Shown here one piece after another: positions 238-62,838 of a stretch of DNA of 64,000 nt. The stretch lies in NCBI GenBank assembly GCA_024672315.1, contig GCA_024672315.1_4714.1; one strand, 5' to 3'. Position numbers and translations under genes: made by a program. Positions within the stretch are counted from its first letter, which is position 1. Each line of letters opens with the position of its first letter. This stretch comes from a phage. The notes under the pieces were generated by a model. It was not told the DNA's origin. It worked only from the letters and a program-made list of their open reading frames with translations, and made no database searches.

Positions 238-271
238 GCCCTCTCCCTTCCCTTACGGGTTGGGAGAGGGC
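238..271. terminator. GC-rich hairpin at convergent junction, probable bidirectional terminator
   Basis: gccctctccc / gggagagggc arms with inner ccc-ttac-ggg; lies between + stop (222) and - stop (288); TATG follows on both strands. Confidence 0.5.
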
Positions 272-287
272 TTATGCTGTTATGTTA

Positions 288-662
288 TTAATGTTCGTTC
301 CAGATGGCATCTTCCGGTGGAACAATAGGATCTTTCTTCGGCATTGATGGCACTTCATGACGATGCTTACGGAACTGCCTATCAATAACCTCACGAAGCC
401 GGTACGCGTCAACCCACGTTGATTTATTGAACAGCTCCAATGTCACAGTTAATCGTGTTCTCGACATTGAATAGCTTTTCTTTGCAATCAAATTGGGATA
501 ATTCAGTTGAGCGAACCACGCACGTATTTGTGCTTCGGTAAAAGCGATGCTGTAATAACTAAGTTTACCGTCATTAAAATCGTGCGCGTGGGTGTAACGT
601 CCAGCGTAACGCCAGACAAGATGCACATTCAGATCGATCCATGGTGGGGTGGTATCAGCCAT
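288..662 (-). CDS. hypothetical protein (124 aa)
   Basis: Long ORF, last gene of leftward block, ends 17 nt before hairpin. Confidence 0.5.
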   Translation of the reverse strand: MADTTPPWIDLNVHLVWRYAGRYTHAHDFNDGKLSYYSIAFTEAQIRAWFAQLNYPNLIAKKSYSMSRTRLTVTLELFNKSTWVDAYRLREVIDRQFRKHRHEVPSMPKKDPIVPPEDAIWNEH

Positions 663-671
663 GTGTTACCC

Positions 672-1241
672 TCAACGATTCTTCATCACTTTACCCAGGC
701 TTTCGATATTATCCCAAAAGCGATTTTTACTTGGCGCATCGCCGACGATAACCGACATCAAATCACGACGTTCGCGACTGATGATGCCTTGTGATTTCCA
801 GATCACCATCGTCCAGCAAGCAGCCAGAACGAACAGATGGTTAATGCTCGGTTTGGTTTGTGCGACGAACGCAAGCCATGCCCAGATACCGGTATATACC
901 AACGTCACTAAAAAGAGAGAGATTGTTGCAACGACGACAACGAAGTTTTGGACAGCGGGCTGATTAGCCTTATCATGAATAGCGGTAAGATCAGGAAGAT
1001 TACCTTCAACTGAACTCGTTTCATCGATTTCCAATTCTTCGATTTCTTTTCGTGTGTCAGGAGCTAATCCAGCATCATCGAGATAGTTTTTTAACCGCTG
1101 AATACTTAATCGTTGACCGACAGGAATGTTGATGTTGTCGTAACTATTAAGCGCATCGACCAGTGAGCGCCCGTCAACGAGAACCAAGCTCGCAGTACCC
1201 ATCGTTTGCGGTTTTATTTTGTAAAGGTCTTTTACTTTCAT
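672..1241 (-). CDS. hypothetical membrane protein (189 aa)
   Basis: ORF with hydrophobic helices in C-terminal half (VVVVATISLFLVTLVYTGIWAWLAFV, LFVLAACWTMVIW). Confidence 0.5.
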   Translation of the reverse strand: MKVKDLYKIKPQTMGTASLVLVDGRSLVDALNSYDNINIPVGQRLSIQRLKNYLDDAGLAPDTRKEIEELEIDETSSVEGNLPDLTAIHDKANQPAVQNFVVVVATISLFLVTLVYTGIWAWLAFVAQTKPSINHLFVLAACWTMVIWKSQGIISRERRDLMSVIVGDAPSKNRFWDNIESLGKVMKNR

Positions 1242-1262
1242 CTAGACACCACCTCCAACGTG

Positions 1263-3875
1263 TTAAGCGTCCGGCGTAAAATCAAAAGGAATGTCCGTAC
1301 GAATGATATCATAACGTTTTCCGAGGAAATAAAACTCTTCGGGAACCTGGCCTGGAATGATGCTATCACCGATGAACTGCGGATACGCCCAGATGTACTG
1401 AGTGAGTCCTTCGAACATATCCAGGTTATTTGCGTGGTTACCCATGATACGTTTCCAGAGTTCGCGTTTATACGGCGTTTTAACATCGAACCCATAAAGC
1501 GGTGCAAGATCTTCACCAGGAACAAATCCCAGGTAATAGTGGATCTGACTAACCGGGAAACCAAGCGTATCTCGCGGAATGGTGATCGCTTGCTCAGCCT
1601 TGGTGACATGCGTCTCAATAATCCAGTCATAGCACTCCGAATAGAACCGATCGAATTTCTCTGGATTATACCATGCTTTGGGAAGATTGAGTTTCTCCGT
1701 GAACGCATTCGACATGATCGTCGGTAAGAACGGAAGAATACCGGTTTTGATCTGCGTGTATTTCGATTTTACCCGGTTAACGAGATTCCAGCAACTGTAT
1801 CCTAATTGGTCGTTACAAAACTCAACGTAGAGATCGTAGTCACCGCCGGATAATGGGTTGTTGATGTCACCGATGTCTGCGGCATATTTGTTGGGATATC
1901 GGTTATTGAAAGCCAGTTTGGTTTGGTAATCGTAGATACACGGTTTGTTGTTCGCTGTATTGATCCACCACCAAGGTTCACCTACCTGCACACAAATGTC
2001 CTGGACATGAGGGTAGATGATATCAGCAAATGCGGTTAACACATCCCCTAACCACGCCATCGCCTGTTGGTTACACGGAGACAACAACCAAGACGGTGGC
2101 GTATATCCGGTTGCTGCGATGTTTCCTTCCCAATCCTGCTGCGCCCATTCGAACGGGCATGCGGTACTCATCAATTCGTAACTTAAACTGATAGTGACAG
2201 AGAAATGGTGTTTTGCAGCATATGCAGCGAAAGCTTCATGCCACGCGATACAGGGCGGATTTAATACATCCGTGGTGTTCACCAGTAACTTACCCGCACT
2301 TGGTGTCCAGACAGTATCGTAGAAATGCGACATGCCAACATAATGCACTAATTCATCCTGATATCCCGCATAAACCAGGTTCTCAAATACACGCTCCGGC
2401 GTGATGTTGTAATGGTCATCATAAGCGGTTATCGCACGAAGTTCGTGTGGCGTACAGTGGTGGCGATTAACCGTCATTTCCTGATACACCCCATCGATAG
2501 GAAGAATCTCGATGGTTAAGCCGAGGTCGATCGGTGTTTCCAGATAGGTCGTTTCAGTCGCATCTTCCTTATAATGTCGAGAACTCATGCTGAACATCAA
2601 CGACGTTACCGATTCGAGTTCGATAGGTTCGTCAGCATAGAACCCCGCCATTGCGTCGTTGAAATCGATCGTTACGATTGCGCTTCTACCGTCTTCAGAG
2701 ACATCTGTCGCATATCGGGTTAATGAGATATACTGACGGCTATCGTCTTTGTGTACAACGGTTAAAACCGGCGGGTGTTCGGTATCTGCAAAGTTACGCT
2801 GATCGCCAGTAAACGTGATCTTCGCTTTAAAGATCAAACCAAGCAACGACGTCATGGGATCATACGCAATACAGCCGTGATCCAGCGTATCCGTTGTCCG
2901 CCATTCTATCCCGACCAACCCGTTAGCGGTATGGCATCGCATATACGCATTAAGTACCATGTCTTCACTGACAACCGCGAAGTTCTCTGTTGACTGACCG
3001 TTGATAATCCAATACATCGGCTGCCAGAGGTTACGCGTACCTTTTGCGTAGCGGTAGGTTGGTGCGCCTTTAGGGTTGCCGTTATTGAGATGGAATACGG
3101 CAGTACCTTGATAATGGTCGTTCGTATTAATCGGAACACTGTAAGCATCACCGAGGTCCGTACGTTCCACCTTCGTGATTGTTGCGTTTTCAAATAACCT
3201 ACGTAGCGCGGGTAAACCGATATCTTCAGGCGCGTTTTCTCGACGAATCGCATCCGCGATGCGGTGGGCTAAGGCGGGGTAAATGACTTCACCCTGTTGT
3301 AGGTTTGCAAGACCTACAAAGCGATCGGGGCCGATACCAGCAATCAATAACTCGACACCACCCTTCGTTCTATCGTCGTTAAGATATTTCAGTCCGGTAA
3401 GGTCAAGATGCTGAATAAGCGACAACAGGTTGTAATTACGGTTCTCAACAGTTAGTACAAGATCGCCCGCCCAAACCAAACTTCCCTCATCCGCTGTTAC
3501 TTTAACGGATTGTCGGCCTGTTGTAGACGTTGTTGTCGTTTTATTTAATTGTCCTTGTAGGAAGTCGGTTGCGAGGTCAAAGGCAATACCGTAACGGTCA
3601 GCGACCGCTTGCATGATTTCACGTAACTGGGTATCTTCTTCAATGATAATCTTGACAGGTATTCCCAAGAACGCTTTAGCAAGGTCTCGTTTAACCAACG
3701 AGACGAATACGGATTTGTAGTATCGGCTTCCATCTTTCCCTTTAAAAAGAATGGAGGTTGTTTCGGGTGCCGATAGAACACGTGCAAATACAACATCGTC
3801 GGAAGTAAGAGAAAGTCCGTTTTTCTCGTTGACCAATCTTAGTATTTCATTTTGCGCGGTTTCATGTAACTTCAT
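1263..3875 (-). CDS. tail fiber/tailspike protein (870 aa) with conserved N-terminal fiber domain and large enzyme-like C-terminal region
   Basis: N-terminus shares motif SLVKRDLAKAFLGIPVKIIIE with ORFs 9064-9591, 13408-14238 and 49364-50815; long aromatic-rich ORF. Confidence 0.65.
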   Translation of the reverse strand: MKLHETAQNEILRLVNEKNGLSLTSDDVVFARVLSAPETTSILFKGKDGSRYYKSVFVSLVKRDLAKAFLGIPVKIIIEEDTQLREIMQAVADRYGIAFDLATDFLQGQLNKTTTTSTTGRQSVKVTADEGSLVWAGDLVLTVENRNYNLLSLIQHLDLTGLKYLNDDRTKGGVELLIAGIGPDRFVGLANLQQGEVIYPALAHRIADAIRRENAPEDIGLPALRRLFENATITKVERTDLGDAYSVPINTNDHYQGTAVFHLNNGNPKGAPTYRYAKGTRNLWQPMYWIINGQSTENFAVVSEDMVLNAYMRCHTANGLVGIEWRTTDTLDHGCIAYDPMTSLLGLIFKAKITFTGDQRNFADTEHPPVLTVVHKDDSRQYISLTRYATDVSEDGRSAIVTIDFNDAMAGFYADEPIELESVTSLMFSMSSRHYKEDATETTYLETPIDLGLTIEILPIDGVYQEMTVNRHHCTPHELRAITAYDDHYNITPERVFENLVYAGYQDELVHYVGMSHFYDTVWTPSAGKLLVNTTDVLNPPCIAWHEAFAAYAAKHHFSVTISLSYELMSTACPFEWAQQDWEGNIAATGYTPPSWLLSPCNQQAMAWLGDVLTAFADIIYPHVQDICVQVGEPWWWINTANNKPCIYDYQTKLAFNNRYPNKYAADIGDINNPLSGGDYDLYVEFCNDQLGYSCWNLVNRVKSKYTQIKTGILPFLPTIMSNAFTEKLNLPKAWYNPEKFDRFYSECYDWIIETHVTKAEQAITIPRDTLGFPVSQIHYYLGFVPGEDLAPLYGFDVKTPYKRELWKRIMGNHANNLDMFEGLTQYIWAYPQFIGDSIIPGQVPEEFYFLGKRYDIIRTDIPFDFTPDA

Positions 3876-3897
3876 TAAAAACCTCAGCCCTTTAGAA

Positions 3898-4539
3898 TTA
3901 GATGTACTGCTTACCGCCCACGAAGGAAGTTAACCAGTTCCCGCTGACGAGTTGTGATACCCAGCCTGGAACGGCTCTACCATTCTGGCTCATGATGTTA
4001 CCACACCAACCAGGGAATCCGGGACGGATGTAATAGAAAGTTAAATTGTAGAGATGACAGTTCCATACCGCAACGTTATGTTTACCAGAAACCGCTTTAA
4101 AGACAAACGCGACAGGTAAAGGAGACGATAACAATTCGGTCACAGGGACGGCTGACCAGTTCGCATTCGCGTTCCACGGCTGCCAGGTATGACTACGCGA
4201 GTCGCAATATACGTTACCGTTGTTACCGCGCCCACCCGCATGCCACCACAGCGACGGACTCATGTTCTTAAGTGAGGTAAATTGTTGCGGTGGAATATTA
4301 GGAATAATAACAGGGTTGGTACCTTGTCCATGTTTCTTTTCTTTTGCGTTCACATACCCGCTTATCGATTCGAGGTATTTGGTACCAGGATAATTGTTCT
4401 GGACTTGTGTCGCAATATCACGAACGTCGAACGTCCAGCAGATCATGGTGTTATAGTAAGCGTCGGTGTTATCGTGCCATGAGTTACCATCTTGTAAACG
4501 TGCGCCGCTATTCGGTGTTTTATCTGTACTTATAGCCAT
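3898..4539 (-). CDS. hypothetical protein (213 aa), Gly/Trp/Asn-rich, possibly virion-associated
   Basis: ORF between tailspike and lipoprotein genes; 139-nt leader contains palindrome GTGAAC-N6-GTTCAC. Confidence 0.45.
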   Translation of the reverse strand: MAISTDKTPNSGARLQDGNSWHDNTDAYYNTMICWTFDVRDIATQVQNNYPGTKYLESISGYVNAKEKKHGQGTNPVIIPNIPPQQFTSLKNMSPSLWWHAGGRGNNGNVYCDSRSHTWQPWNANANWSAVPVTELLSSPLPVAFVFKAVSGKHNVAVWNCHLYNLTFYYIRPGFPGWCGNIMSQNGRAVPGWVSQLVSGNWLTSFVGGKQYI

Positions 4540-4678
4540 GGTCTTGTCCTATACGTTGGTGGTTGAGGTGACGGATATCGGATGCGTGCTGGACGTGAAC
4601 CCTATAGTTCACGCTATCGCCATTTTCTACCTCGTTTCTATTCTCAAAAAGGAAATTTCATACGATGACGCCATAGCA

Positions 4679-4708
4679 GCTCCTCCTTCCCTGACGGGTT
4701 GGAGGAGC
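4679..4708 (-). terminator. hairpin downstream of lipoprotein gene
   Basis: gctcctcc-N14-ggaggagc; followed on minus strand by TGCTATGG. Confidence 0.5.
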
Positions 4709-4716
4709 ATACTTAA

Positions 4717-5223
4717 TTACTTACTGATAACCTCAACGGAGTTGGGATCAGCGATCAATGCACGGTCGGTAGAACAATTGAAGAAGACCATCCCAACACC
4801 ATCGCCGTTCGAGTTCAGGGTTGAACTTGCGTAAGACAATGTTGGTTTGTTCATGCGGTAGAAGCGTTCGCTGGTTGCGGTATTGAACCCCAGGTCAACG
4901 TAGTCTTTCACCGTGGTATACAACTGGGTGGACTCGAAAACGGTTACCGGAGAGTCAACGGTAAACTGACTGCCTTCATCCACAACCAGAACTTTATCGT
5001 TCCAGATTTCAGTGGTTGAGAACTTCGGTTTCCAATGTTCGAATTCCTGGGTTGCGCCCCAGCAAGAATACACAGCGAGATTGCTGTTCTTCTCAACAGG
5101 TTTCAAACCCACCAGTTGCGTCAGGTCTTTATCCAGGTTCGGTAAACCTTCCAGCGTAGCACACCCACCCAGAGAAAGCACCATCAACATACCAAGAACG
5201 ATCGCGCAAAGTTTCTTCATCAT
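4717..5223 (-). CDS. putative lipoprotein (168 aa)
   Basis: N-terminus MMKKLCAIVLGMLMVLSLGGC: signal peptide with lipobox-like LGGC; embedded in tail fiber cluster. Confidence 0.6.
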   Translation of the reverse strand: MMKKLCAIVLGMLMVLSLGGCATLEGLPNLDKDLTQLVGLKPVEKNSNLAVYSCWGATQEFEHWKPKFSTTEIWNDKVLVVDEGSQFTVDSPVTVFESTQLYTTVKDYVDLGFNTATSERFYRMNKPTLSYASSTLNSNGDGVGMVFFNCSTDRALIADPNSVEVISK

Positions 5224-5277
5224 CGGATTTCCTTATGTGTTAACGGAAGTGATTTCCATAAGAATAATCGTCCGATG

Positions 5278-8200
5278 TTAATATCCCTGGTTTGTAGCTC
5301 CTGCTGTACCTGCGAACTTCAGCCATTGCCCTTCCGGCGACAATGCGCTCCGATAATGATACACTACAATCATATTTGTCAAACCGCTATAATCTGCTTT
5401 ATGTTGCGTAGTAATACGTATCGTATAATCCAACCCGTTAGGGAAGTTGAATACTTCAATGATCGTACCGGCGAGCTGGAGAGCACCGAACCCGGTGATT
5501 GTTCCTGTGCTTCCGGCGTTCATGCCCATCGCATCGCCGAATCCAATCCAGTAGCGTTTCCGAAACGCACCTTCGCTTTTCAGATAGTTGATGAAGTCAC
5601 TAAACGACATGTTCATACCACCAGATGAAAGCGTGGATGTTTTAATCGCCATGTTAGGGATATCGCTACTGGATGCTTTATATCCTAATTTCGTATCGAT
5701 TTCTGACTTCGTATACGTAGACAGATCCGCCGCAGTTAACGTGATATTCGCCGAACCATCGAACGCTTTCCCGTTGATCGTACGCGCAGTCCGCAACTTC
5801 GTTGCCGTTGCTGCGTTTCCTGAAGTATTCTGATTACCAGCGGTGTTGACACCTGGTAGGTTAATATTAGCGCTGCCGTCAAAAGACACTCCGCCTATTG
5901 TCCGGGCCGTCTTTAACTTGGTCGCTGTCGCCGCATTTCCTGTGGTATCTTGGTTACCTGTGGTATTAACACCAGGTAAGTTGATGTTTGCTGTACCGTT
6001 GAATGATACCCCACCTATCGTTCTTGCCGTTTGAAGCCTTGTCGCTGAAGCGGCATTACCCGTCGTGTTTTGGTTACCTGTTGCATTCACACCCGGGATA
6101 CTATCCTTAGATGTGTAAATCTGTGCCCATTCCGACCATTTCGCATCGGTTGTATCGCGACGTGAACGTAAATAAGCTGGAGCGTGCGCGCCCGAGGTAC
6201 CCGACCATCCAATGAGGATTTCACCTTCACCAACCGATGAAGCACCTTTAAGATGAACAATGTTACCGTAGGCTGTAGGGTATCCGTTATTGTACACTTC
6301 ATACATCTGAATACCCGTATTGCTGCCCTGGGTCGCATTAGCTAAAGCGGTGACCCGTCCCTTGGAAGCGAGCACGTTAATGCTAAAGCTAATATCAGTT
6401 GTACCGTCAAAGGCGACCCCATTAATCCTCCGCGCCGTTTGGAGTTTCGTGGCAGTAGCCGCATTACCAGAGGTACTCTGATTACCCGCTTTGTTCACAC
6501 CCGGTAAATCAATGTTGGCGGTCCCATCAAAGGACACACCCCCTATGGTTCTCGCCGTCCGAAGTTTTGTTGCTGAACCAGCGTTTCCGGAAGTGCTTTG
6601 ATTCCCCGACGCGTTGACACCCGGTAGGTTAATGCTCGCAGAACCATCAAAAGAAACTCCGCCGATCGTGATCGGTGTTTGCAGCTTCGTGGCTGTCGCA
6701 GCATTACCCGTCGTATTCTGATTGCCAACCGCATTAACGCCTGGTAATGCGATATCGGCCGTACCATCGAACGCAACACCACCGATTTTACGGGCGGTCT
6801 GTAGCTTGGTCGCTGTCGCCGCGTTGCCGCTGGTATTTTGCGTGCCCGCTTCATTTACGCCTGGTAAATCAATGTTCGCAGTACCGTCAAAAGAAACACC
6901 CCCGATGGTTCTCGCGGTCTGCAACTTCGTTGCACTTCCTGCGTTTCCGCTGGTGCTTTGATTTCCCGCTGCATTAACACCTGGTAGACTGATGCTGGCT
7001 GAACCATCGAAACTCACACCACCGATCGTAACAGCGGTTTTCAATTTCGTGGCGGTTGCTGCGTTACCGGTTGTATTTTGGTTGCCTGTCGCATTCACGC
7101 CAGGTAATGCAATATCCGCTGTTCCGTCAAAGGCAACGCCACCGATTTTACGTGCAGTTTGTAGCTTGGTTGCACTAGCAGCGTTACCGCTGGTATTCTG
7201 GGTGCCCGCTTTGTTAACACCGGGGAGATCGATGTTAGCAGAACCATCGAAGCTGACGCCACCTATCGTTCTTGCGGTAGCGAGTTTAGCTGCTGTGGCT
7301 GCATTATTACCCACTTTCAGCCAATCATCCCATGGACCATCCTGGCCGTTCCATGATGCCGTTAAACTACGTACGTAAATATTGCCGGTACGTACAGTGT
7401 AACGTTGCGTTCCACCGAATTGCCCGGTTGGGAGCACTTCAATGTAACCTGCGGCGTTTGCTTCAGGGAAATTGTGGGCGATGTCCGCGTTCGTTGTTAC
7501 TGGTTTAGACCAAATACCCACAGACGCTTCGACTGGGCCGAAGGTATTCAGATTTGCGTCTATCGCCATAGCGCCATTAAATTTCAGGTATGTCTCTGAC
7601 GATAACCCGATCGTTTTAGCAAACGCAGCTTTATCTACGATATCACTACCGTTATTCCCTGCTTGCAACGCCGTCTTAGCTGCCTTTATGGTTTCGGTCA
7701 ATCCAAGATACTGTAAGATCGCATCAACGCTTCCTTTGTTTAGCAGATTCAGACCTGTTGACGTTACGTTAGTTAGTCCGATTTGGTTCCGTCCAGTAAA
7801 ATAAGGGAGTTTATTCGCTTCTGTTGTTAGGTTAGACCACGCAGTCAACAACGCGTTCAAAGGCTGTTTACCCGCCAACGCATTGGTTACTGTCGTTGCG
7901 AAATTAGGATCGTTCCCTAAAGCTTGAGCCAGCTCATTAAGCGTATTTAGCGCTTCTGGAGACGAGTCGATCAGCGATGCGATAGCGCGCATCACAAATT
8001 CCGTGTTGGCAATCTGTCGACTGCTATCGTTCTCTGCAGCCGTAGGCGCTGCCGGGATACCGGTGAACACGGGGCTATTAAGATCTGCCTTGAGCGCGAT
8101 GAGACGTTTAAGTGCGTCGACATCGACTTTCAGGTTTTCCCACCCGATGAGAGAACCACCACTGCTGGCATGATAACGGTTATACCAGAAGTCACCGTTA

Positions 8201-9057: not shown

Positions 9058-9063
9058 GTTGTT

Positions 9064-9591: not shown

Positions 9592-9705
9592 AAGCGCAAC
9601 CCTCCTCCAACAGTCAAATTAAATTGTAAAACTCCTCGAGATCAGAGTGCGATTCGAGGTAAACGTAAACAGTCCAGACGACCGCATAAAATTCCGCGCA
9701 TATTG

Positions 9706-9737
9706 CCCCTCTATCTCGCTTTGTCGAGATAGAGGGG
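9706..9737 (-). terminator. 13-bp-stem hairpin
   Basis: cccctctatctcg-ctttgt-cgagatagagggg; followed on minus strand by ...TTTTATGCGG. Confidence 0.55.
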
Positions 9738-9773
9738 AGGATAATACGATTATGCTGCCGCACTCCAAAGTTC

Positions 9774-9794
9774 ATGGGGCGGTAACCGCCCCAT
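9774..9794 (-). terminator. hairpin immediately after stop of 1198-aa gene
   Basis: atggggcgg-taa-ccgccccat. Confidence 0.45.
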
Positions 9795-9797
9795 CGG

Positions 9798-13394: not shown

Positions 13395-13407
13395 TATTTA
13401 CTCCACC

Positions 13408-14238: not shown

Positions 14239-14320
14239 ACTGACCTCATAGATGATCGTTGATAGGAAAGAAACCTAATTCATACCATGGGAACCTCAAA
14301 AAAAAACGAAAAATAGGAAA

Positions 14321-14353
14321 ACGGTGTTCATCCCTAAAAAGGATGAACACCGT
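14321..14353 (-). terminator. intrinsic terminator (13-bp stem plus T-tract)
   Basis: acggtgttcatcc-ctaaaaa-ggatgaacaccgt, followed on minus strand by TTTTCCTATTTTTCGTTTTTTTTT. Confidence 0.75.
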
Positions 14354-15771: not shown

Positions 15772-16302
15772 TTAATGTTTGTTCTTTACGAACTCTACCG
15801 CTTCCAGAATAGCAGCGTTTAATCGTTGACCGCGTTCCTCCATTGTCCCGCCATCGCGATGTTTGAAATTAACCGAGTGGATATCCCAAGCCCAGTAATG
15901 TGTCTCCGGCGTGTCGTCTTCTTTGGTGGGATCGCTCAATCTGTTAACCCCGATTCGCCAAATATAATCAGCGGGTTGTCGTCGTAAGCATTCACCTATA
16001 GCGTCTATATAAGACAACCCTTCGGTCGTCACAGCGACGATAACGTGCGGATGCTTACGAACAACCTTTGTGCTTGTTTTCCCATCAACGACCACTTTAC
16101 GGGTTACATTATCGTGTCCTTCGCATGACCACATCGGTGCAATACCAGGCGCATCTAACAACGCCTGGCACGCGGGTAATATTCCGGGTTCAATGACTCC
16201 TTCCTTGATAGCCATCCATGCACGTTCTTTGAATATCGCTAATTGTTCTTCGCTGACAACAAAAGAAAACATAATTACTCCTTTCTGGTTCTTCCCCTCC
16301 AC
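15772..16302 (-). CDS. hypothetical protein (176 aa)
   Basis: ORF; start uncertain. Confidence 0.45.
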   Translation of the reverse strand: MEGKNQKGVIMFSFVVSEEQLAIFKERAWMAIKEGVIEPGILPACQALLDAPGIAPMWSCEGHDNVTRKVVVDGKTSTKVVRKHPHVIVAVTTEGLSYIDAIGECLRRQPADYIWRIGVNRLSDPTKEDDTPETHYWAWDIHSVNFKHRDGGTMEERGQRLNAAILEAVEFVKNKH

Positions 16303-16344
16303 AGCCTCAGGAAGAGAAGAACCGTTTGCTAAGTTGCTAAGTAA

Positions 16345-16602: not shown

Positions 16603-16656
16603 GATGATTTCCTTCTTTATTAGGATGATTACATTTAGTCAGTTTAACAGCATAAA

Positions 16657-16681
16657 CCCTTCCTGCGTAATGCAGGAAGGG
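16657..16681 (-). terminator. hairpin downstream of endolysin gene
   Basis: cccttcctgc-gtaat-gcaggaaggg; followed on minus strand by GTTTATGCTG. Confidence 0.55.
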
Positions 16682-19528: not shown

Positions 19529-19562
19529 GATAAAGATCCTCGTTGAAATAAAATCGGTATAA

Positions 19563-19585
19563 AGGCCCCCCATTTAGGGGGACCT
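19563..19585 (-). terminator. hairpin
   Basis: agg(c)ccccc-attta-ggggg(a)cct; followed on minus strand by CTTTATACCG. Confidence 0.4.
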
Positions 19586-23494: not shown

Positions 23495-23519
23495 TTTGTT
23501 TCCTTTTTATCGGCATAAG

Positions 23520-23538
23520 CCCTCCCATGCCGGGAGGG
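23520..23538 (-). terminator. hairpin CCCTCCC/GGGAGGG
   Basis: ccctccc-atgcc-gggaggg; followed on minus strand by CTTATGCCG about 20 nt before methyltransferase ATG. Confidence 0.5.
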
Positions 23539-26053: not shown

Positions 26054-28789
<2,736 letters not shown>

Positions 28790-28824
28790 GATGGGAGGGA
28801 CACAGGCAATACGCTTTTATTTCG

Positions 28825-31558: not shown

Positions 31559-31577
31559 CCCCGTCATTAAGACGGGG
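31559..31577 (-). terminator. hairpin
   Basis: ccccgtc-attaa-gacgggg just downstream of stop at 31584. Confidence 0.45.
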
Positions 31578-35857: not shown

Positions 35858-35874
35858 GATAGTTCTCCGTATTA

Positions 35875-35892
35875 GGGTGGGCGTACCCACCC
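35875..35892 (-). terminator. hairpin downstream of thymidylate synthase gene
   Basis: gggtgg-gcgtac-ccaccc. Confidence 0.45.
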
Positions 35893-35904
35893 TCAGTTGT
35901 TAAT

Positions 35905-37124: not shown

Positions 37125-37257
37125 CGTTTTTCACCTCGTCGTAAAAGTAAATAGAGTTTTGTCGAGACGCCCTAATTACTTACAACGTCGGTTCTCCCGG
37201 CTTCAGAGAATTCTTAAAATCCGTTAGTTTTGATAGATAGGGTAAGACGGCATAAAA

Positions 37258-37276
37258 GCCTCCCATTACGGGAGGC
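37258..37276 (-). terminator. hairpin plus T-tract
   Basis: gcctccc-attac-gggaggc followed on minus strand by TTTTATGCCG; 14 nt after stop at 37290. Confidence 0.6.
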
Positions 37277-37289
37277 TCTATTAATCAGC

Positions 37290-37890: not shown

Positions 37891-37914
37891 GAGGGGGTAT
37901 TATCCCACCCCCTC
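37891..37914 (-). terminator. hairpin
   Basis: gagggggt-attatccc-accccctc, 11 nt after stop at 37925. Confidence 0.5.
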
Positions 37915-38832: not shown

Positions 38833-38854
38833 GTTAACCTCAATACGAACATAA

Positions 38855-38886
38855 CCCTCCTCCAACCCAACAGGGAAGGAGGAGGG
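38855..38886 (-). terminator. hairpin
   Basis: ccctcctcc-N14-ggaggaggg, 10 nt after stop at 38896. Confidence 0.5.
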
Positions 38887-38895
38887 AATATGCTG

Positions 38896-39210
38896 TTATT
38901 CTGTTTTCGGTGTTGAACCGTTCTTCTTGAAGTCGGATTCGTATTTCACGTTAGAATCGAGAACCTCACGAACGGTTTTATCTGTACAACCACGAGCGAT
39001 GTACGCATTAAGATCGTCGCGTAATTTACGCATCGTTGTTTTATCAGCATCAGAAATATCTGACTTGGTAAGACGGAATGCAATTGCATCACGAACTTTA
39101 TTCAGCGTTGCTGGGTTATTACGCTGTTCTGCAAATACTGCTTTGATGAATGTACCGCTATCTTTCGAAGCGACGGCTGCATCAAGAATCTCAATATGCT
39201 TTTCAGACAT
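38896..39210 (-). CDS. hypothetical protein (104 aa)
   Basis: ORF. Confidence 0.45.
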   Translation of the reverse strand: MSEKHIEILDAAVASKDSGTFIKAVFAEQRNNPATLNKVRDAIAFRLTKSDISDADKTTMRKLRDDLNAYIARGCTDKTVREVLDSNVKYESDFKKNGSTPKTE

Positions 39211-43762: not shown

Positions 43763-43792
43763 GAAGGTGGATGGGTGTACCCATCCACCTTC
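43763..43792 (-). terminator. 13-bp-stem hairpin
   Basis: gaaggtggatggg-tgta-cccatccaccttc, 8 nt after stop at 43800. Confidence 0.55.
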
Positions 43793-45161: not shown

Positions 45162-45199
45162 CTTTATCTCCTTAACGGGTGCTGGTAACGCAGCATAAA

Positions 45200-45217
45200 C
45201 CCTCCCCGAAGGGAGGG
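45200..45217 (-). terminator. hairpin CCCTCCC/GGGAGGG
   Basis: ccctccc-cgaa-gggaggg; followed on minus strand by TTTATGCTG about 30 nt before next ATG. Confidence 0.5.
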
Positions 45218-47117: not shown

Positions 47118-47151
47118 CTCCTCCCCAGGAAAGGTGTGGGGAGGAGTTTTT
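47118..47151 (+). terminator. hairpin plus T5 tract upstream of helicase gene
   Basis: ctcctcccca-ggaaaggtg-tggggaggag-ttttt; no upstream + gene within window, so role ambiguous. Confidence 0.4.
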
Positions 47152-47181
47152 ATCATACATTCTATTAAATCGAGCGCGATT

Positions 47182-49268: not shown

Positions 49269-49296
49269 AAGCTCTGTCTGACATCAGACAGAGCTT
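49269..49296 (+). terminator. 13-bp-stem hairpin after helicase stop
   Basis: aagctctgtctga-ca-tcagacagagctt followed by TATGTTG. Confidence 0.55.
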
Positions 49297-49363
49297 TATG
49301 TTGTATTTGTTGCAACAATCGTATGACGTATACGCGTTGTACTTATTTAATAAGGCAGAATAA

Positions 49364-50815
49364 ATGAAACTTAAACAAAGCTGGAAAGACGAACTTCTCG
49401 CGTTAGTAAACAGCAAAAACAGCTTACAGCTGACATTAGACGACGTAAAATTTGAACTAACTGAACCGGTAAGCGAAGTGCCCGGAACGGTTGTCGTTAC
49501 GATCAAACCGAACGATGATAGCCGTTACTTTAACGAGCAGTCTCTGACCTACATCCGTCGAGACATCGCTAAAAACTTCACCGGGATCCCGTTACGCGTT
49601 ATCGTTAAAAATGATACCGCTGTAAGGGATATCATCAACACGATCGCTGAACGTTACGGATTGGTATTTGACACAACCGTCGACTTCCTCGAATCCGAGC
49701 TGAATAAACAAATTACGTTCGAAGACACCGGTATTAAAGACATTACGGTTCCGGTTGCAAACACGTCTTATGTTTGGGCTGGTAATCTTCAGTTCAATAT
49801 CGCTAACGATACGTTGAGCTTGATTACGATCATCAAGCAAACCAATCTTACGAATCTGGTTTATCTGGATGGCGTTGAAGCTGACACATCGGGTTCGTTA
49901 CTGTTAGCAACGACCTCGGTTATCGGCGAAAACGGAAATGCCGAAACAACTGAAGGTGTCCTTGCCGCCACGTACTTCCAGAATATCCTGAACGTCATGG
50001 TTCGTTATGGTGATATTACCAGCGAACAAATGCAACAAGCAATGCAGACAATTAACGAAAGCGAAGACGCTCGTAGAGTAGAGGTGCGGTCATACGGTGA
50101 CGCCGAGTTACTGGTAACCACCAAGAAAGATTGGGTTATCGGTAGCCTTAAGGGTGCTATGGTTGTTGGTCACGCTTCACCTAAACCAATCCAATACATT
50201 CTTAAAACAAAAGGCGGCAGCATTATATTGTCATTAGATGGTTGGACAAATGTCAATATCGATTGGGGTGATGGGAATAAGACGACGGAGACCTCAGGCG
50301 ATAATGAATATCGACACAATTATGCGGACACTACAGAACGTACGATCGTCGCTACGGGTACCCCTACCAACGTTGAAGATACAGAGGTACAGCAAAGCTT
50401 CACCGGTGGTAACATCACTGAAATCGTTGACTGGAACAACGGATTACCTAAGGCCCCATCATTCCTTGCGGCGAACAGTTTAACTAAGGTTCCTGATTAT
50501 ATCCCGGCATACTGGACATCGTTAGAAGGTATGTTTACGCGATGCAGCGCTATTAACAACGTGAACATCACCAAATGGAACACCCGCAACATTACTTCAA
50601 TGAAGGACCTCTTCTACGGTTGCGCTACATTCAACCAACCGATCGGTTCGTGGGATGTTTCGTCTGTTAAGAATGCAGACAATATGTTGTCTGGGTGCTT
50701 CGCGTTCAATCAGGATCTGAGCGGTTGGACGTTCCCGGCAGGCACTTCACACGTCAACTACGACGCCATGACCGCCGCATGGCAGGCTGGTTATAAACCA
50801 CACTTCGCCGAGTAA
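49364..50815 (+). CDS. tail fiber protein (483 aa) with shared N-terminal fiber domain
   Basis: SWKDELLALVNSKNSLQLTLDDV...TYIRRDIAKNFTGIPLRVIVK matches the N-domain of three leftward paralogs. Confidence 0.65.
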   Translation: MKLKQSWKDELLALVNSKNSLQLTLDDVKFELTEPVSEVPGTVVVTIKPNDDSRYFNEQSLTYIRRDIAKNFTGIPLRVIVKNDTAVRDIINTIAERYGLVFDTTVDFLESELNKQITFEDTGIKDITVPVANTSYVWAGNLQFNIANDTLSLITIIKQTNLTNLVYLDGVEADTSGSLLLATTSVIGENGNAETTEGVLAATYFQNILNVMVRYGDITSEQMQQAMQTINESEDARRVEVRSYGDAELLVTTKKDWVIGSLKGAMVVGHASPKPIQYILKTKGGSIILSLDGWTNVNIDWGDGNKTTETSGDNEYRHNYADTTERTIVATGTPTNVEDTEVQQSFTGGNITEIVDWNNGLPKAPSFLAANSLTKVPDYIPAYWTSLEGMFTRCSAINNVNITKWNTRNITSMKDLFYGCATFNQPIGSWDVSSVKNADNMLSGCFAFNQDLSGWTFPAGTSHVNYDAMTAAWQAGYKPHFAE

Positions 50816-50835
50816 AAAAAAAATAGATAGTATAT

Positions 50836-50868
50836 CTTCCTCCCTACCCATAACGGGCGGGGAGGAAG
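50836..50868. terminator. bidirectional terminator at convergent junction
   Basis: cttcctccc-N13-gggaggaag; A9 run on + side gives T-tract for minus transcript; TTTATGTGG follows on + side. Confidence 0.65.
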
Positions 50869-50885
50869 GTTTATGTGGTTATGAC

Positions 50886-52114: not shown

Positions 52115-52131
52115 ACATGCTCCGGTTATAA

Positions 52132-52149
52132 GGGCCTACATCGAGGCCC
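52132..52149 (-). terminator. hairpin
   Basis: gggcct-acatcg-aggccc after helicase stop; CTTATAACCGG follows on minus strand. Confidence 0.4.
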
Positions 52150-57447: not shown

Positions 57448-57561
57448 AATCTCATTTCCTCTTCTACGTAGAAATAGATGACATGTTGGATATACGTTGC
57501 CTTTGCATATATTGCTTTATTTCCGTCAGAAATAACGGAAAATAAAAACAACAACATAGTT

Positions 57562-57591
57562 CCCTCCCACCTCCACATGGGAGAGGGAGGG
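57562..57591 (-). terminator. GC-rich hairpin
   Basis: ccctccc-N16-gggaggg; followed on minus strand by AACTATGTTG. Confidence 0.45.
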
Positions 57592-57604
57592 CTATACGTG
57601 TTTA

Positions 57605-58348: not shown

Positions 58349-58427
58349 ACCAGGGATCCTCTTTTAAGTGTTCACATTCTAGTGTTAAGCAGTTAAAATA
58401 AACCGTCCCTTTAATCAGCATAAACAT

Positions 58428-58456
58428 CCTCCTCCCACCACATGGGCAGGAGGAGG
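58428..58456 (-). terminator. hairpin
   Basis: cctcctcc-N13-ggaggagg; followed on minus strand by ATGTTTATGCTG. Confidence 0.5.
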
Positions 58457-58467
58457 CGTAATATGCA

Positions 58468-61058: not shown

Positions 61059-61089
61059 AGGACTTCCTATTATCGAATTGAGGTACGTC

Positions 61090-61443
61090 ATGTCTAACAC
61101 GCCCCTGAACGACTTTCTTAAGACAAACCCCGATGACCTCATCCACGATCTTGATTTCAGGAACGTTGTTGAGATGCATCTGGAATATTTCAAAAATGCC
61201 GGACTGGTCTCTACGATAGACATACCACCCGAACGCGCCTACGAATTCGATGGTAACTTTTATGGATTGTGTCGTGTTCTGCTCGGTGAGGGCAGTGAAC
61301 CAATGCACTGGATAACCATGAGACTCAATGGTTATCGTGACCCTACGGAATACACCGCCGATGTTCTAACCATGAAGATTGTCGATACAAGCGCAATCAA
61401 CACATTAAAACAACAGTACCGCACAATCCACTACAGCGCTTAA
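61090..61443 (+). CDS. hypothetical protein (117 aa) on opposite strand
   Basis: ATG 61090 with GAGGT RBS; ORF ends 5 nt before hairpin 61449-61477; preferred over antisense track ORF 61048-61308. Confidence 0.4.
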   Translation: MSNTPLNDFLKTNPDDLIHDLDFRNVVEMHLEYFKNAGLVSTIDIPPERAYEFDGNFYGLCRVLLGEGSEPMHWITMRLNGYRDPTEYTADVLTMKIVDTSAINTLKQQYRTIHYSA

Positions 61444-61448
61444 GATAA

Positions 61449-61477
61449 CCCTCCCACAGCGTAAAGCGTAGGGAGGG
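61449..61477. terminator. hairpin at convergent junction
   Basis: ccctccc-N15-gggaggg followed on + strand by CATTTATGCCG. Confidence 0.5.
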
Positions 61478-61508
61478 CATTTATGCCGTCGTTCGATGAC
61501 TTAATACA

Positions 61509-62789
61509 TCAGAAACGATTTACAGTACGTCCTGTCCACGCGCTCAGGATGTTGTTACGTTCCATCTCAGCACGACGACGTAAACCGTTTGGCGACTGCG
61601 GTGCTTGCGGCATCCCCCATCCAGCAGGTTGCATGCCCATGCCCGGCCAAGCAGCGTTATTGAACATCGTACCGTTACGTTCAGCAACACGGTTCATCAA
61701 CGCATCAAACGTGCTATTACCTGCCGGTTGGTTACCACCACTTTCCCACTGATTAGGTTGGACAGGTGCGGTTTTACCTAACAGGTTATCGATCACACTG
61801 CCTGTTGAAGCAGGACGCGGTTGCATACCTTCATGTGCAGCTGCTGATGGATTCGGCTTAACCGTCGGCTGTGGACGACTGTTCAGCGTTACACCCATGT
61901 TGTATTTCGCTGGCGGAATTTGACCACGATGTTGATTAATCGGTTCAAAATCCTCGACCCAGGTAACATCACAATAACCGTTCTCTTTACCGTCGTACTT
62001 ATCACCAAACAGTTTGATGAGATGGTTCAGCGGTTCCATCAGCTTAGCGAAGCTGTGGATAAGACAATCGAAATACGGGGCATGAGGGTCGCTTGACCCA
62101 GCGTTGTACGTTTCACTTACCTCACCCGCGTGCGGGATAACGTACTCAACCAGGTTTCTCAGCATGTTAAGATCTTTCTTGGAAATCTCAACACCGCACC
62201 AGTACGTTTTCTTATCTTTCGTGCTGATATGTTCTTCTTCCATGAACGGGAAAGTAACGACCGCAACACGGGTCATCTTCTTACCCATGTAGGTTGCACC
62301 AGTACGACGAAGATAGATTTTGGACAGCGTATACGGCGTGTCACGTTTCAGCCAAACGGTGACCAGTTTGCCCAGGGTCGTTAATGTTTTATCGCTGGCG
62401 TCCGCAAGGATGTTGAAGAACTCTTTTTGCTTCGGTCCGAAACGTTTTGCTTCTTTAGGATTGATTGCGGTTTCAACCATCCAAATCAGCATGGAGCATA
62501 GCGTGGCGTTAAAACGAACAACCATCGCACGACGCAGGAACTGAAGTACTTCCGATTCGCCGTTCATCACGTCTTCACTTAGCGGATGGAACAGCACGCG
62601 TTCAGCCAGCTGATTTCCGGTACGAACTTCGGAAACCGGCATCAGCAACGGCATGCTTTCCACGGTAGCGGCAACCGCAACAACTTTACCATCCCCATCC
62701 GTAAAACGATATTCTAATTCGTGGGCGTCATTCTCAAAATAGTTAACGCTCTGTAGTGCTTTGCGATAAGCTTCGATAAGCTTCGACAT
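61509..62789 (-). CDS. hypothetical protein (426 aa) with Gly/Pro/Gln/Met-rich low-complexity C-terminal region
   Basis: ORF with AAGGAAAT RBS; C-terminus GMQPRPASTG...AAWPGMGMQPAGWGMPQAPQSP. Confidence 0.55.
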   Translation of the reverse strand: MSKLIEAYRKALQSVNYFENDAHELEYRFTDGDGKVVAVAATVESMPLLMPVSEVRTGNQLAERVLFHPLSEDVMNGESEVLQFLRRAMVVRFNATLCSMLIWMVETAINPKEAKRFGPKQKEFFNILADASDKTLTTLGKLVTVWLKRDTPYTLSKIYLRRTGATYMGKKMTRVAVVTFPFMEEEHISTKDKKTYWCGVEISKKDLNMLRNLVEYVIPHAGEVSETYNAGSSDPHAPYFDCLIHSFAKLMEPLNHLIKLFGDKYDGKENGYCDVTWVEDFEPINQHRGQIPPAKYNMGVTLNSRPQPTVKPNPSAAAHEGMQPRPASTGSVIDNLLGKTAPVQPNQWESGGNQPAGNSTFDALMNRVAERNGTMFNNAAWPGMGMQPAGWGMPQAPQSPNGLRRRAEMERNNILSAWTGRTVNRF

Positions 62790-62816
62790 ATTGTATTTCC
62801 TTTTCTTTACGTCAAC

Positions 62817-62838
62817 GGTCCCCCTACAACAGGGGACC
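62817..62838 (-). terminator. hairpin
   Basis: ggtcccc(c)t-acaac-aggggacc between stop at 62845 and start at 62789. Confidence 0.45.

What the first reader, a model, noticed from the sequence alone, without database searches (positions are those of the whole stretch)
238..62838. Family of more than 20 GC-rich hairpins, many followed by a conserved TTTATGCYG motif
Almost every intergenic gap carries a hairpin whose arms are variations of CCCTCCC/GGGAGGG or CCTCCTCC/GGAGGAGG. In transcript orientation many are followed within 0-10 nt by TTTATGCTG (16647, 45186, 58410), TTATGCCG (23511, 61480), TTTTATGCCG (37249), TTTTATGCGG (9683), TTTATGTTG (49297), TATGTTG (57555), or the variants TTTATACCG and TTATAACCGG. 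Some are classic intrinsic terminators (14321-14353 with T9; 50836-50868 with T-tracts on both sides), but a conserved ATGC after a 3-nt T-run is more than a U-tract needs. One reading is a composite terminator-promoter unit in which TATG is a phage-RNAP late-promoter core (a TATG late consensus is reported for phiKZ, to my recollection). The ATG in the motif is usually not in frame with the downstream gene.
Basis: partly seen in the sequence, partly recalled or inferred. Interest (0 to 1): 0.65.

Follow-up and report, generated by a model that had tools for sequence, protein, structure and literature searches.

The report
Conserved jumbo-phage transcription terminators with TTATGYYG tail
The GC-rich hairpins followed by TTTATGCYG are the conserved transcription terminators already described in phiKZ-like nucleus-forming jumbo phages, here seen in a close relative of E. 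coli phage Goslar. The TATG in their tail most likely helps to end transcripts rather than to start them.

Summary
The window is a 94.8%-identical relative of Escherichia phage Goslar (Chimalliviridae). It has 25 strong hairpins in or next to gene gaps, usually 3-34 nt after a stop codon.

TATG lies within -3..+6 nt of the stem end in 15 of 28 sense-strand cases, against 3 of 22 antisense cases and a 5% background. The tail consensus is T-TAT-G-Y-Y-G.

This matches the published phiKZ terminator motif, BCCYCCCCHWWDGGGRRGGBYTTATKYYGT, reported for 61 terminators (Putzeys 2024). The 3' half of that motif hits the window 15 times against 2.1 expected.

- **Sense-RNA structure:** there are ten G.U pairs in the sense strand and none in the antisense strand. 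Compared with Goslar, stems diverge 2.6% and loops 15.8%, and one stem pair changed in a compensating way.
- **Terminator reading:** supported.
- **Composite terminator-promoter reading:** not supported. The full tail also occurs at three convergent gene ends. In phiKZ's published maps, RNA 3' ends fall within 3 nt of the TTATK in 8 of 8 sites checked. None of 119 mapped start sites uses that TATG.

This is a new member of a known kind, of modest interest. One idea stays open: the phage RNA polymerase pocket that reads TATG at late promoters may also read it here as a pause or release signal.

The parts
231..279 (.). Bidirectional terminator hairpin (stem 238-272) between convergent genes 25-222(+) and 288-662(-). 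The + tail is TATGCTG and the - tail is TATGTTA.
   Evidence: Folding energy is -29.8 / -27.8 kcal/mol and the stem starts 16 nt from both stops. Goslar annotates a terminator at the matching site. The centre of the hairpin is inverted relative to Goslar.
4669..4708 (-). Hairpin GCTCCTCC..GGAGGAGC with tail TGCTATGGCG.
   Evidence: Folding energy is -22.2 kcal/mol and the stem starts 9 nt after the stop of 4717-5223. It is identical in Goslar.
9680..9737 (-). Hairpin CCCCTCTATCTCG..CGAGATAGAGGGG with tail CAATATGCGCGG and a second TTTTATGCGG.
   Evidence: Folding energy is -24.1 kcal/mol. In Goslar the loop is inverted, and two A>G changes keep pairing only as G.U in the sense RNA.
9774..9794 (-). 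Hairpin ATGGGGCGG..CCGCCCCAT, 4 nt after the stop of 9798-13394, with no TATG tail.
   Evidence: -16.3 kcal/mol.
14290..14353 (-). Classic intrinsic terminator: a 13-bp stem followed by a T-rich tail (TTTTCCTATTTTTCGTTTTTTTTT).
   Evidence: It is the only one of the listed hairpins in 1-20000 that the built-in terminator scan flags. Folding energy is -22.9 kcal/mol.
16287..16323 (-). Hairpin without a TATG tail. It abuts the ribosome-binding site of gene 15772-16302.
   Evidence: Folding energy is -21.9 kcal/mol in the sense strand against -13.5 in the antisense strand, with 2 G.U pairs.
16648..16681 (-). Hairpin CCCTTCC..GGAAGGG with tail TTTATGCTG.
   Evidence: The stem starts 15 nt after a stop and folds at -18.7 kcal/mol. 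The only change against Goslar is in the loop.
19555..19585 (-). Hairpin AGGTCCCCC..GGGGGGCCT with the variant tail TTTATACCG.
   Evidence: The stem starts 3 nt after a stop. Folding energy is -18.5 kcal/mol in the sense strand against -13.4 in the antisense strand.
23511..23538 (-). Hairpin CCCTCCC..GGGAGGG with tail CTTATGCCG.
   Evidence: Hairpin and tail are identical in Goslar.
28765..28807 (-). Hairpin GCCTGTGTCCCTCCC..GGGCGGGCACGGGC with tail GTTATGCTG.
   Evidence: Folding energy is -23.5 kcal/mol and the stem starts 18 nt after a stop.
31559..31577 (.). Hairpin CCCCGTC..GACGGGG without a TATG tail.
   Evidence: about -13 kcal/mol.
35874..35893 (-). Hairpin AGGGTGGG..CCCACCCT without a TATG tail.
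   Evidence: -14.6 kcal/mol.
37248..37277 (-). Hairpin AGCCTCCC..GGGAGGCT with tail TTTATGCCG.
   Evidence: The stem starts 13 nt after a stop. Goslar annotates a terminator here.
37891..37914 (-). Hairpin GAGGGGGT..ACCCCCTC with the degenerate tail AATTTGTTG.
   Evidence: The stem starts 11 nt after a stop. Goslar annotates a terminator here.
38847..38896 (.). Hairpin CCCTCCTCC..GGAGGAGGG. The - tail is TTATGTTCG and the + tail is AATATGCTGT.
   Evidence: Folding energy is -26.6 kcal/mol. The + strand tail matches the phiKZ consensus.
43763..43792 (-). 13-bp hairpin at a gene junction, with no TATG tail.
   Evidence: -24.0 kcal/mol.
45191..45217 (-). Hairpin CCCTCCC-TTCG-GGGAGGG with tail TTTATGCTG.
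   Evidence: The stem starts 11 nt after a stop. It has 1 mismatch to the 3' half of the phiKZ consensus.
47118..47158 (+). Hairpin CTCCTCCCC..GGGGAGGAG with + strand tail TTTTTATCATAC, in a divergent gap.
   Evidence: Folding energy is -19.6 kcal/mol. Goslar annotates a + strand terminator here. No + strand gene lies upstream, so its role is unexplained.
49269..49303 (+). 12-bp hairpin with tail (T)TTATGTTG, between + strand genes 47134-49263 and 49364-50815.
   Evidence: The stem starts 6 nt after a stop. A compensating T-A to C-G change against Goslar keeps the pair. The tail in Goslar is TTCATGCTG.
50810..50878 (.). Bidirectional hairpin (50836-50868) between convergent genes. The + tail is GTTTATGTGG and the - tail is ATATACTATCTA followed by T10.
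   Evidence: Folding energy is about -23 kcal/mol and the stem lies 21 / 18 nt from the two stops.
52122..52149 (-). Hairpin GGGCCT..AGGCCC with the variant tail TTATAACCGG.
   Evidence: -10 kcal/mol. Only loop positions differ from Goslar.
57552..57592 (-). Hairpin GCCCTCCCTCTCCC..GGAGGTGGGAGGG with tail AACTATGTTG.
   Evidence: Folding energy is -21.7 kcal/mol in the sense strand against -19.4 in the antisense strand. The stem starts 13 nt after a stop.
58416..58457 (-). Hairpin GCCTCCTCC..GGAGGAGG with tail ATGTTTATGCTG.
   Evidence: Folding energy is -22.9 kcal/mol in the sense strand against -17.6 in the antisense strand, with 2 G.U pairs.
61449..61488 (.). Hairpin CCCTCCC..GGGAGGG between convergent genes: 61078-61443(+), the homologue of Goslar gp172, and 61509-62789(-). 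The + tail is CATTTATGCCG and the - tail is TTATCTTAAG.
   Evidence: Only inner-stem and loop positions changed against Goslar.
62817..62838 (-). Hairpin GGTCCCC..GGGGACC without a TATG tail.
   Evidence: The stem starts 7 nt after a stop. Folding energy is -15.4 kcal/mol in the sense strand against -13.3 in the antisense strand.

Best explanation
These are factor-independent transcription terminators of the type conserved in phiKZ-like nucleus-forming jumbo phages.

**Proposed steps.**
1. As the phage's multisubunit RNA polymerase passes a stop codon, the nascent RNA folds into a C-rich/G-rich hairpin.
2. The next 5-8 nt, UUUAUG(Y)(Y), form a weak RNA:DNA hybrid.
3. The transcript is released about 6-9 nt past the stem, at or just after the G.

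**Role of the tail.** The conserved tail T-TAT-G-Y-Y-G is part of the terminator, not a promoter. It replaces the long U-tract of ordinary bacterial terminators. It probably adds a sequence-specific pause at a pyrimidine followed by G, just before release.

**Bidirectional sites.** Hairpins between convergent genes work in both directions and can carry a tail on each side.

**Shown here:** the structure, the tail, its position after stops, its strand-specificity and its conservation.
**Shown by others in phiKZ:** RNA 3' ends lie at the tail.
**Inferred:** the same happens in this phage, and the pause mechanism.
For: **Identity of the phage.**
- The window is 94.8% identical to Goslar, a member of the Chimalliviridae.
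- Goslar's record already labels several of these hairpins 'putative transcriptional terminator'.

**Match to the published motif.**
- The published phiKZ terminator motif is BCCYCCCCHWWDGGGRRGGBYTTATKYYGT, found in 61 terminators (PMC10914365).
- 201phi2-1 has a closely similar motif A in 59 terminators, and eight 201phi2-1 terminators were tested in vivo in a terminator trap (PMC11512511).
- The 3' half of the phiKZ consensus hits the window 15 times against 2.08 +/- 1.28 expected.
- The tail logo from the window is T TAT G Y Y G.

**Position and orientation.**
- Hairpins start a median of about 12 nt after a stop codon.
- The tail is locked to the sense orientation: TTATG in 11 of 28 sense instances and 0 of 22 antisense instances.

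**RNA-level structure.**
- There are 10 G.U pairs in sense folds and 0 in antisense folds. The sense fold is more stable in 10 hairpins, equal in 9 and less stable in 1 (Wilcoxon p=0.004).
- Against Goslar, stems diverge 2.6% and loops 15.8% (Fisher p=1e-8).
- One stem pair changed in a compensating way, and two changes gave G.U pairs only in the sense RNA.

**Published phiKZ transcript ends, re-analysed.**
- Transcript 3' ends lie -3..+2 nt from the K of TTATK at 8 of 8 sites checked. The nearest start sites are 25-49 nt downstream.

**Breadth.**
- The same tails follow hairpins in 50-kb samples of Goslar, phiKZ, 201phi2-1 and Erwinia RAY, but not in T4.
Against: - No transcript ends have been mapped for Goslar or for this phage.
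- About 10 of the 25 hairpins lack the tail, so the tail is not obligatory.
- The tail has only 2-4 U, so it fails a canonical terminator scan.
- The 10 nt after the stem are not more conserved against Goslar than other flanks (5.2%). Divergence is too low for that to mean much.
- Nanopore 3' ends cannot separate true termination from trimming back to a protective hairpin.
- The motif was absent from the 50-kb samples of SPN3US and EL, so it is not universal in the family.
Confidence: 0.8

Rival explanations
1. Composite terminator-promoter. Transcripts end at the hairpin, and the non-virion RNA polymerase starts new transcripts at the G of the adjacent TATG, the late-promoter core.
For: - TATG with G as +1 is the phiKZ late-promoter core and is necessary for transcription.
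- Most tails lie 20-140 nt upstream of a same-strand gene.
- In phiKZ some late start sites sit only 5-10 nt beyond a terminator tail (P049, P075).
Against: - The full tail is present at three convergent junctions, where a start would be antisense.
- YYG is conserved after TATG, unlike in phiKZ late promoters.
- In phiKZ, 0 of 119 inspected start sites use a terminator's own TATG, and 8 of 8 tails carry a 3' end instead.
- TATG alone is not sufficient for a promoter, and it occurs 223 times in the coding sense strand of this window.
Confidence: 0.1
2. The hairpins are protective 3' stem-loops or RNA-processing sites. On this reading they are not sites of polymerase release. Transcripts read through and are trimmed back to the hairpin, and the tail is a nuclease or RNA-binding-protein signal.
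For: - Nanopore 3'-end maps cannot tell termination from processing.
- The phage encodes a 3'-5' exoribonuclease homologue (Goslar gp147).
- Only 2-4 U follow the stems.
Against: - The conserved YYG lies beyond the mapped 3' ends in phiKZ, so it would have to act before trimming.
- Eight 201phi2-1 terminators, chosen for high termination efficiency in the sequencing data, were tested in vivo in a reporter trap.
- The distance of 6-9 nt from stem to 3' end is the classic intrinsic-terminator geometry.
Confidence: 0.07
3. The hairpins are DNA-level palindromic repeats, either REP/MITE-like selfish elements or binding sites for a dimeric DNA-binding protein. They would be unrelated to transcript ends.
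For: Many copies share CCCTCCC/GGGAGGG arms and are confined to gene gaps. The centres of two hairpins are inverted between the window and Goslar, as happens in DNA cruciform-like palindromes.
Against: - Stem sequences and lengths differ widely between copies.
- G.U pairs occur only in the sense strand, 10 against 0.
- The tail is orientation-locked to the upstream gene.
- All copies sit at the orthologous Goslar positions, with no sign of mobility.
Confidence: 0.03

Closest known systems
phiKZ conserved intrinsic terminator motif, 5'-BCCYCCCCHWWDGGGRRGGBYTTATKYYGT-3' (Putzeys et al. 2024, PMC10914365)
   Same: - It has a C-rich 5' arm and a G-rich 3' arm.
- It has a short spacer, then TTAT, G/T, YYG(T).
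- It lies after stop codons.
- Bidirectional copies carry a tail on both sides. Compare phiKZ T012/T013, AACAGCATAAGCCCTCCC..GGGAGGGCATTATG, with window 223-287.

Sources.
   Different: - The host and genus differ: E. coli Goslarvirus against Pseudomonas Phikzvirus.
- Stems here are often longer, up to 15 pairs with internal loops, and loops run 4-9 nt.
- The K position is G in 15 of 18 aligned tails here.
- No transcript ends have been mapped in this phage.
201phi2-1 terminator motif A (PMC11512511)
   Same: The authors describe it as strongly resembling the phiKZ motif. My 50-kb sample shows tails such as CCCTCCCTTCGGGGAGGG-CTTTATGCCG.
   Different: Five motif classes and combined A/B hairpins are described there. 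I did not look for those classes here.
phiKZ late promoter of the non-virion RNA polymerase (TATG, G = +1; PMC4666361, PMC12809450)
   Same: It uses the same four-base word, TATG, on the non-template strand.
   Different: - Late promoters show no conservation after TATG and no upstream hairpin requirement.
- Here YYG follows TATG and a hairpin precedes it.
- In phiKZ the terminator TATG marks 3' ends, not 5' ends.
Canonical bacterial intrinsic terminator (GC hairpin plus a U-tract of 7-9 nt)
   Same: It has a GC-rich hairpin just after a gene, followed by an A/T-rich stretch. Release occurs 6-9 nt past the stem, which is shown for phiKZ.
   Different: Only 2-4 U occur before a fixed A, then G-Y-Y-G. 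Only 14321-14353 and the - side of 50836-50868 have real T-runs.
Elemental pause consensus G(-10) Y(-1) G(+1) of multisubunit RNA polymerases (from my own knowledge; a lead, not a test)
   Same: If release is at the second Y of TATGYY|G, then Y is at -1, G is at +1 and the G-rich stem end is near -10. Several phiKZ 3' ends fall at +1/+2 from the K.
   Different: This has never been tested for phage non-virion or virion RNA polymerases. The 3'-end maps have a resolution of a few nucleotides.

Membership tests
phiKZ-type conserved terminator | GC-rich hairpin with a C-rich 5' arm (CCYCC-like) and a G-rich 3' arm | tested here: met
   About 15 of the 25 hairpins have CCYCC/GGRGG-type arms. Folding energies run from -10 to -30 kcal/mol.
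phiKZ-type conserved terminator | Tail BY-TTAT-K-YYG(T) directly after the stem | tested here: met
   The 18-mer GGGRRGGBYTTATKYYGT with up to 3 mismatches gives 15 hits against 2.08 expected, and 0 of 100 shuffles reach that. TATGYYG is next to a hairpin in 11 cases.
phiKZ-type conserved terminator | Lies downstream of a gene, in that gene's orientation | tested here: met
   The stem starts 3-34 nt after a stop in 25 of 28 sense instances. TTATG occurs in 11 of 28 sense and 0 of 22 antisense instances.
phiKZ-type conserved terminator | Transcript 3' ends map to the tail | not testable with these tools
   No transcriptome is available for this phage. In phiKZ, 8 of 8 sites checked have a published 3' end within -3..+2 nt of the K.
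Canonical intrinsic terminator | U-tract of at least 5-6 U within 8 nt after the stem | tested here: not met
   The built-in scan of 1-20000 flags only 14321-14353 among the listed hairpins. Most tails have 2-4 T.
phiKZ late promoter (non-virion RNA polymerase) | TATG word on the non-template strand | tested here: met
   TATG is present in 15 of 28 sense instances.
phiKZ late promoter (non-virion RNA polymerase) | Transcription starts at the G of TATG | not testable with these tools
   No 5'-end data exist for this phage. In phiKZ, none of 119 start sites inspected uses a terminator-tail TATG.
phiKZ late promoter (non-virion RNA polymerase) | Lies upstream of a gene on the same strand | tested here: inconclusive
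   This holds for most - strand copies. It fails at the three convergent junctions at 273-279, 50871-50878 and 61481-61488.
REP/MITE-like palindromic repeat | Near-identical copies spread without regard to gene orientation; structure at the DNA level | tested here: not met
   Stems differ in sequence and length. G.U pairs occur only in the sense strand. All copies are orthologous with Goslar.
Any Rfam family | Match at the gathering score | tested here: not met
   There were 0 matches in the window.

The most novel reading that the evidence does not exclude
The word TATG may mark both the starts and the ends of transcripts in these phages.

[quoted passage not shown] The same pocket would bind the TATG of the terminator tail when the transcription bubble reaches it. 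That would hold the polymerase 6-9 nt past the hairpin long enough for the hairpin to release the RNA.

The tail would then be a promoter-mimic pause signal. This is analogous to sigma-dependent or core-recognition-element pauses in bacteria.

It would also explain why an A and a G are fixed inside what would otherwise be a U-tract, from Pseudomonas phages to E. coli and Erwinia phages.
Probability: 0.2. Interest if true: 0.7.

Novelty: new member of a known kind. Interest (0 to 1): 0.33.

Why it matters
- **Annotation.** These terminators give a ready map of transcription-unit ends for Goslar-like phages, which have no published transcriptome. Standard terminator finders miss most of them because the tail has few U.
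- **Conservation.** The tail T-TAT-G-Y-Y-G is conserved across four sampled genera: Goslarvirus, Agricanvirus, Phikzvirus and Serwervirus. Their hosts and base compositions differ. This points to a requirement of the phage RNA polymerases rather than of the hosts.
- **Link to promoter recognition.** The tail contains the late-promoter core word. The papers that describe the terminator motif do not contain the word TATG (one search counts it 0 times in PMC11512511, one search counts it 0 times in PMC10914365). This makes a simple question testable: does promoter-recognition chemistry also serve termination in these unusual polymerases?

Tried and rejected
- **Built-in scan.** Promoter-like sites are fewer than in shuffles. 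The terminator scan misses the family because it demands a T-run.
- **Perfect-stem scan.** It missed the imperfect hairpins, so I replaced it with a sliding-window fold.
- **Rfam.** Nothing was found.
- **Goslar-specific transcript maps.** None is held. The ChmC eCLIP paper used PhiPA3 and reports no motif.
- **Supplements.** The journal versions of the phiKZ and 201phi2-1 papers have no supplements held as text. The bioRxiv version of the phiKZ paper had the tables.
- **Depletion of TATG in genes.** I tested whether TATG is avoided on the coding sense strand, which might indicate a signal. Observed/expected is 0.71 on the sense strand and 0.63 on the antisense strand, so there is no strand-specific avoidance and the test is uninformative.
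- **Conservation of the tail against Goslar.** The tail diverges 5.2%, no less than other flanks. Overall divergence is too low for the test to have power.
- **Early versus late tail types.** I considered that T-rich tails serve the virion polymerase and TATG tails the non-virion polymerase. The early region of phiKZ shows several TTTATTTT tails. But here an operon behind an early-promoter-like element ends in TTTATGCTG at 45191-45217, so I did not adopt the idea.
- **Not run.** I did not build a covariance model or scan the public contig collections. The published consensus and direct sampling of six phages answered the question.


Full report
**What the window is**

An 8-kb stretch of the window is 94.8% identical over its whole length to Escherichia phage vB_EcoM_Goslar. 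Goslar is a nucleus-forming jumbo phage of the Chimalliviridae, and it was the only phage matched in the collection.
- Window position 1 corresponds to about 93.8 kb of Goslar.
- Nearly all genes run on the - strand. The exceptions are 47134-50815 and a few small + strand genes.
- By my gene map, 92.6% of the window is coding.

**The observation**

A sliding-window fold of both strands shows how strongly stable hairpins concentrate in the gaps. At -20 kcal/mol or below there are 26 strand-instances in the 7.4% non-coding part and 9 in the coding part.

I curated 25 hairpins in or next to gene gaps.
- In 25 of the 28 hairpin/strand combinations that have an upstream gene on the same strand, the stem begins 3-34 nt after the stop codon.
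- 'Almost every gap' is an overstatement. Only 20 of 37 gaps of at least 30 nt hold a listed hairpin.

**The tail**
- TATG starts within -3..+6 nt of the stem end in 15 of 28 sense instances and 3 of 22 antisense instances. The background is about 5% per ten positions in non-coding sequence.
- TTATG occurs in 11 of 28 sense and 0 of 22 antisense instances.
- Aligned on TATG (18 tails, TATA variants included), the logo is a G-rich stem end, 0-2 nt, then T, TAT, G (15/18), Y (16/18), Y (16/18), G (13/18).
- TTATGCYG occurs 12 times against 3.7 +/- 2.0 in shuffles.
- Of 53 TATGYYG words in the window, both strands counted, 11 touch a hairpin.

**Structure acts in the sense RNA**
- I folded the same coordinates on both strands. 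The sense fold is more stable in 10 hairpins, equal in 9 and less stable in 1 (Wilcoxon p=0.004). Sense folds contain 10 G.U pairs and antisense folds none.
- Against Goslar, paired positions differ at 2.6% and loop or bulge positions at 15.8% (Fisher p=1e-8).
- Hairpin 49269-49296 has a compensating T-A to C-G change.
- Hairpin 9706-9737 has two A>G changes in Goslar that keep pairing only as G.U in the - strand transcript.

**What it is**

[quoted passage not shown] It reported this for 61 terminator regions (PMC10914365).
- The 201phi2-1 study found a motif A in 59 terminators that 'strongly resembles' it. It also tested eight terminators in vivo in a terminator trap (PMC11512511).
- The window's hairpin+tail is this element. 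The 3' half of the phiKZ consensus, allowing up to 3 mismatches, hits the window 15 times against 2.08 +/- 1.28 expected, and most hits are at the curated hairpins.
- Bidirectional copies also look alike. Compare phiKZ T012/T013 with window 223-287.
- Goslar's own record labels six of these sites 'putative transcriptional terminator'.
- Using one simple rule (perfect stem of at least 6 pairs, TATKYYG within 13 nt), I counted tails in 50-kb samples, except that the window is 64 kb and Goslar and phiKZ were each sampled twice:

| Sample | Tails found |
|---|---|
| Window | 7 |
| Goslar (two samples) | 6 and 7 |
| phiKZ (two samples) | 9 and 3 |
| 201phi2-1 | 8 |
| Erwinia phage RAY | 7 |
| SPN3US | 0 |
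| EL | 2 (unconvincing) |
| T4 | 0 |

**Terminator or promoter?**

- Its G is +1, each base is needed, and TATG alone is not sufficient (PMC4666361).
- The non-template TATG is held in a pocket of the beta-like subunit GP123 (PMC12809450).

Four things argue that the tail TATG is not a promoter.
1. **Convergent junctions.** The full tail follows + strand genes at three convergent junctions: 273-279; 50871-50878; and 61481-61488, which lies after the homologue of Goslar gp172. A start there would run antisense into the next gene.
2. **Downstream conservation.** The tail keeps YYG conserved after TATG. phiKZ late promoters show no conservation downstream of TATG.
3. **Published 3' ends in phiKZ.** I located hairpin+TTATK sites in phiKZ 1-100 kb and compared them with the published end positions (bioRxiv 10.1101/2023.10.13.562163, supplementary tables S3 and S4). 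All eight GC-hairpin sites in the stretch covered by both tables have a 3' end at -3..+2 nt from the K. None has a start site closer than 25 nt.
4. **Published start sites in phiKZ.** In the 119 upstream sequences I read (P008-P126), none ends in hairpin+TTATG. Two (P049, P075) start at a second TATG 5-10 nt further on. Several early, middle and late promoters sit 25-50 nt beyond a terminator tail.

So terminator and promoter are often neighbours, but they are separate elements.

**Mechanism**
- **Shown here:** a sense-strand RNA hairpin just after the stop codon, followed by UUUAUGYYG.
- **Shown in phiKZ by others and re-analysed here:** RNA ends at about the G, 6-9 nt past the stem.
- **Inferred:** the short A/U-rich hybrid plus a pyrimidine-G step acts as the release and pause site for the phage polymerases. 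This replaces the long U-tract of ordinary terminators, which is why the standard scan misses these.
- **From my own knowledge, not tested:** the match to the elemental pause consensus (G at -10, Y at -1, G at +1).

**Open idea**

An A and a G are fixed inside the tail across four sampled genera, and the word equals the late-promoter core. The pocket that reads TATG at promoters may therefore also read it here as a pause signal. I give this 0.2. The two papers that describe the terminator motif do not contain the word TATG.

**Limits**
- No transcript ends are available for this phage or for Goslar.
- About 10 hairpins lack the tail.
- Divergence from Goslar is too low to test conservation of the tail.
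- I read 33 of 132 phiKZ 3' ends and 119 of 149 start sites.
- The 3'-end maps have a resolution of a few nucleotides.

**Verdict**

This is a new member of a known kind of element, with interest 0.33.

Noticed in passing
window 19965-19995 and 47008-47038 (- strand); Goslar L001:20788-20801, L001:49791-49804 and L002:23060-23073: A 24-nt element, TTTCACGGCTATATTACTTA[G/C]GTGA, sits in two gaps upstream of - strand genes (19588-19905 and 46287-46973). It is conserved in Goslar, which has a third copy. Its core, TATATTAC, equals the core of phiKZ early (virion polymerase) promoters listed in the phiKZ supplementary table. These are probably early promoters.
   Followed up: partly
window 238-272 and 9706-9737, compared with Goslar: The central part or loop of these two hairpins is the reverse complement of the Goslar version (TTCCCTTACGGGTT against AACCCAGCAGGGAA; ACAAAG against CTTTGT). 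This is a 'flip' of the palindrome centre that leaves the stem intact.
   Followed up: no
window 37232-37240, 37871-37879 and 50822-50830 (- strand): CTATCTATC (or CTATCTATT) lies 5-25 nt downstream of three terminator hairpins. It could be a promoter word, but its count in the window is not significant: 16 against 10.4 expected with one mismatch.
   Followed up: partly
window 47118-47158 (+): A terminator-like hairpin with tail TTTTTATCATAC lies in a divergent gap, just upstream of the + strand helicase gene, with no + strand gene before it. Goslar annotates it as a terminator. It could stop antisense transcripts or act as a leader attenuator.
   Followed up: no
L006 (SPN3US 100-150 kb) and L008 (EL 100-150 kb): The hairpin+TATKYYG tail was absent or nearly absent from these two Chimalliviridae samples. 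It was present in Goslar, RAY, phiKZ and 201phi2-1. The terminator tail may therefore be lineage-specific within the family.
   Followed up: partly
L003 (phiKZ 1-12 kb): Hairpins in the early-gene region of phiKZ mostly carry TTTATTTT tails (3735, 7334, 8928), while later regions carry TTATGYYG. This may be a difference linked to the polymerase class, but the sample is too small to tell.
   Followed up: no
window 5278-9057, compared with Goslar 98471-102861: The tail-fibre region differs from Goslar. The window has one ORF of 1259 aa. Goslar has a 1324-aa tail fibre gene plus a separate tail fibre assembly gene. A host-range module may have been exchanged.
   Followed up: no
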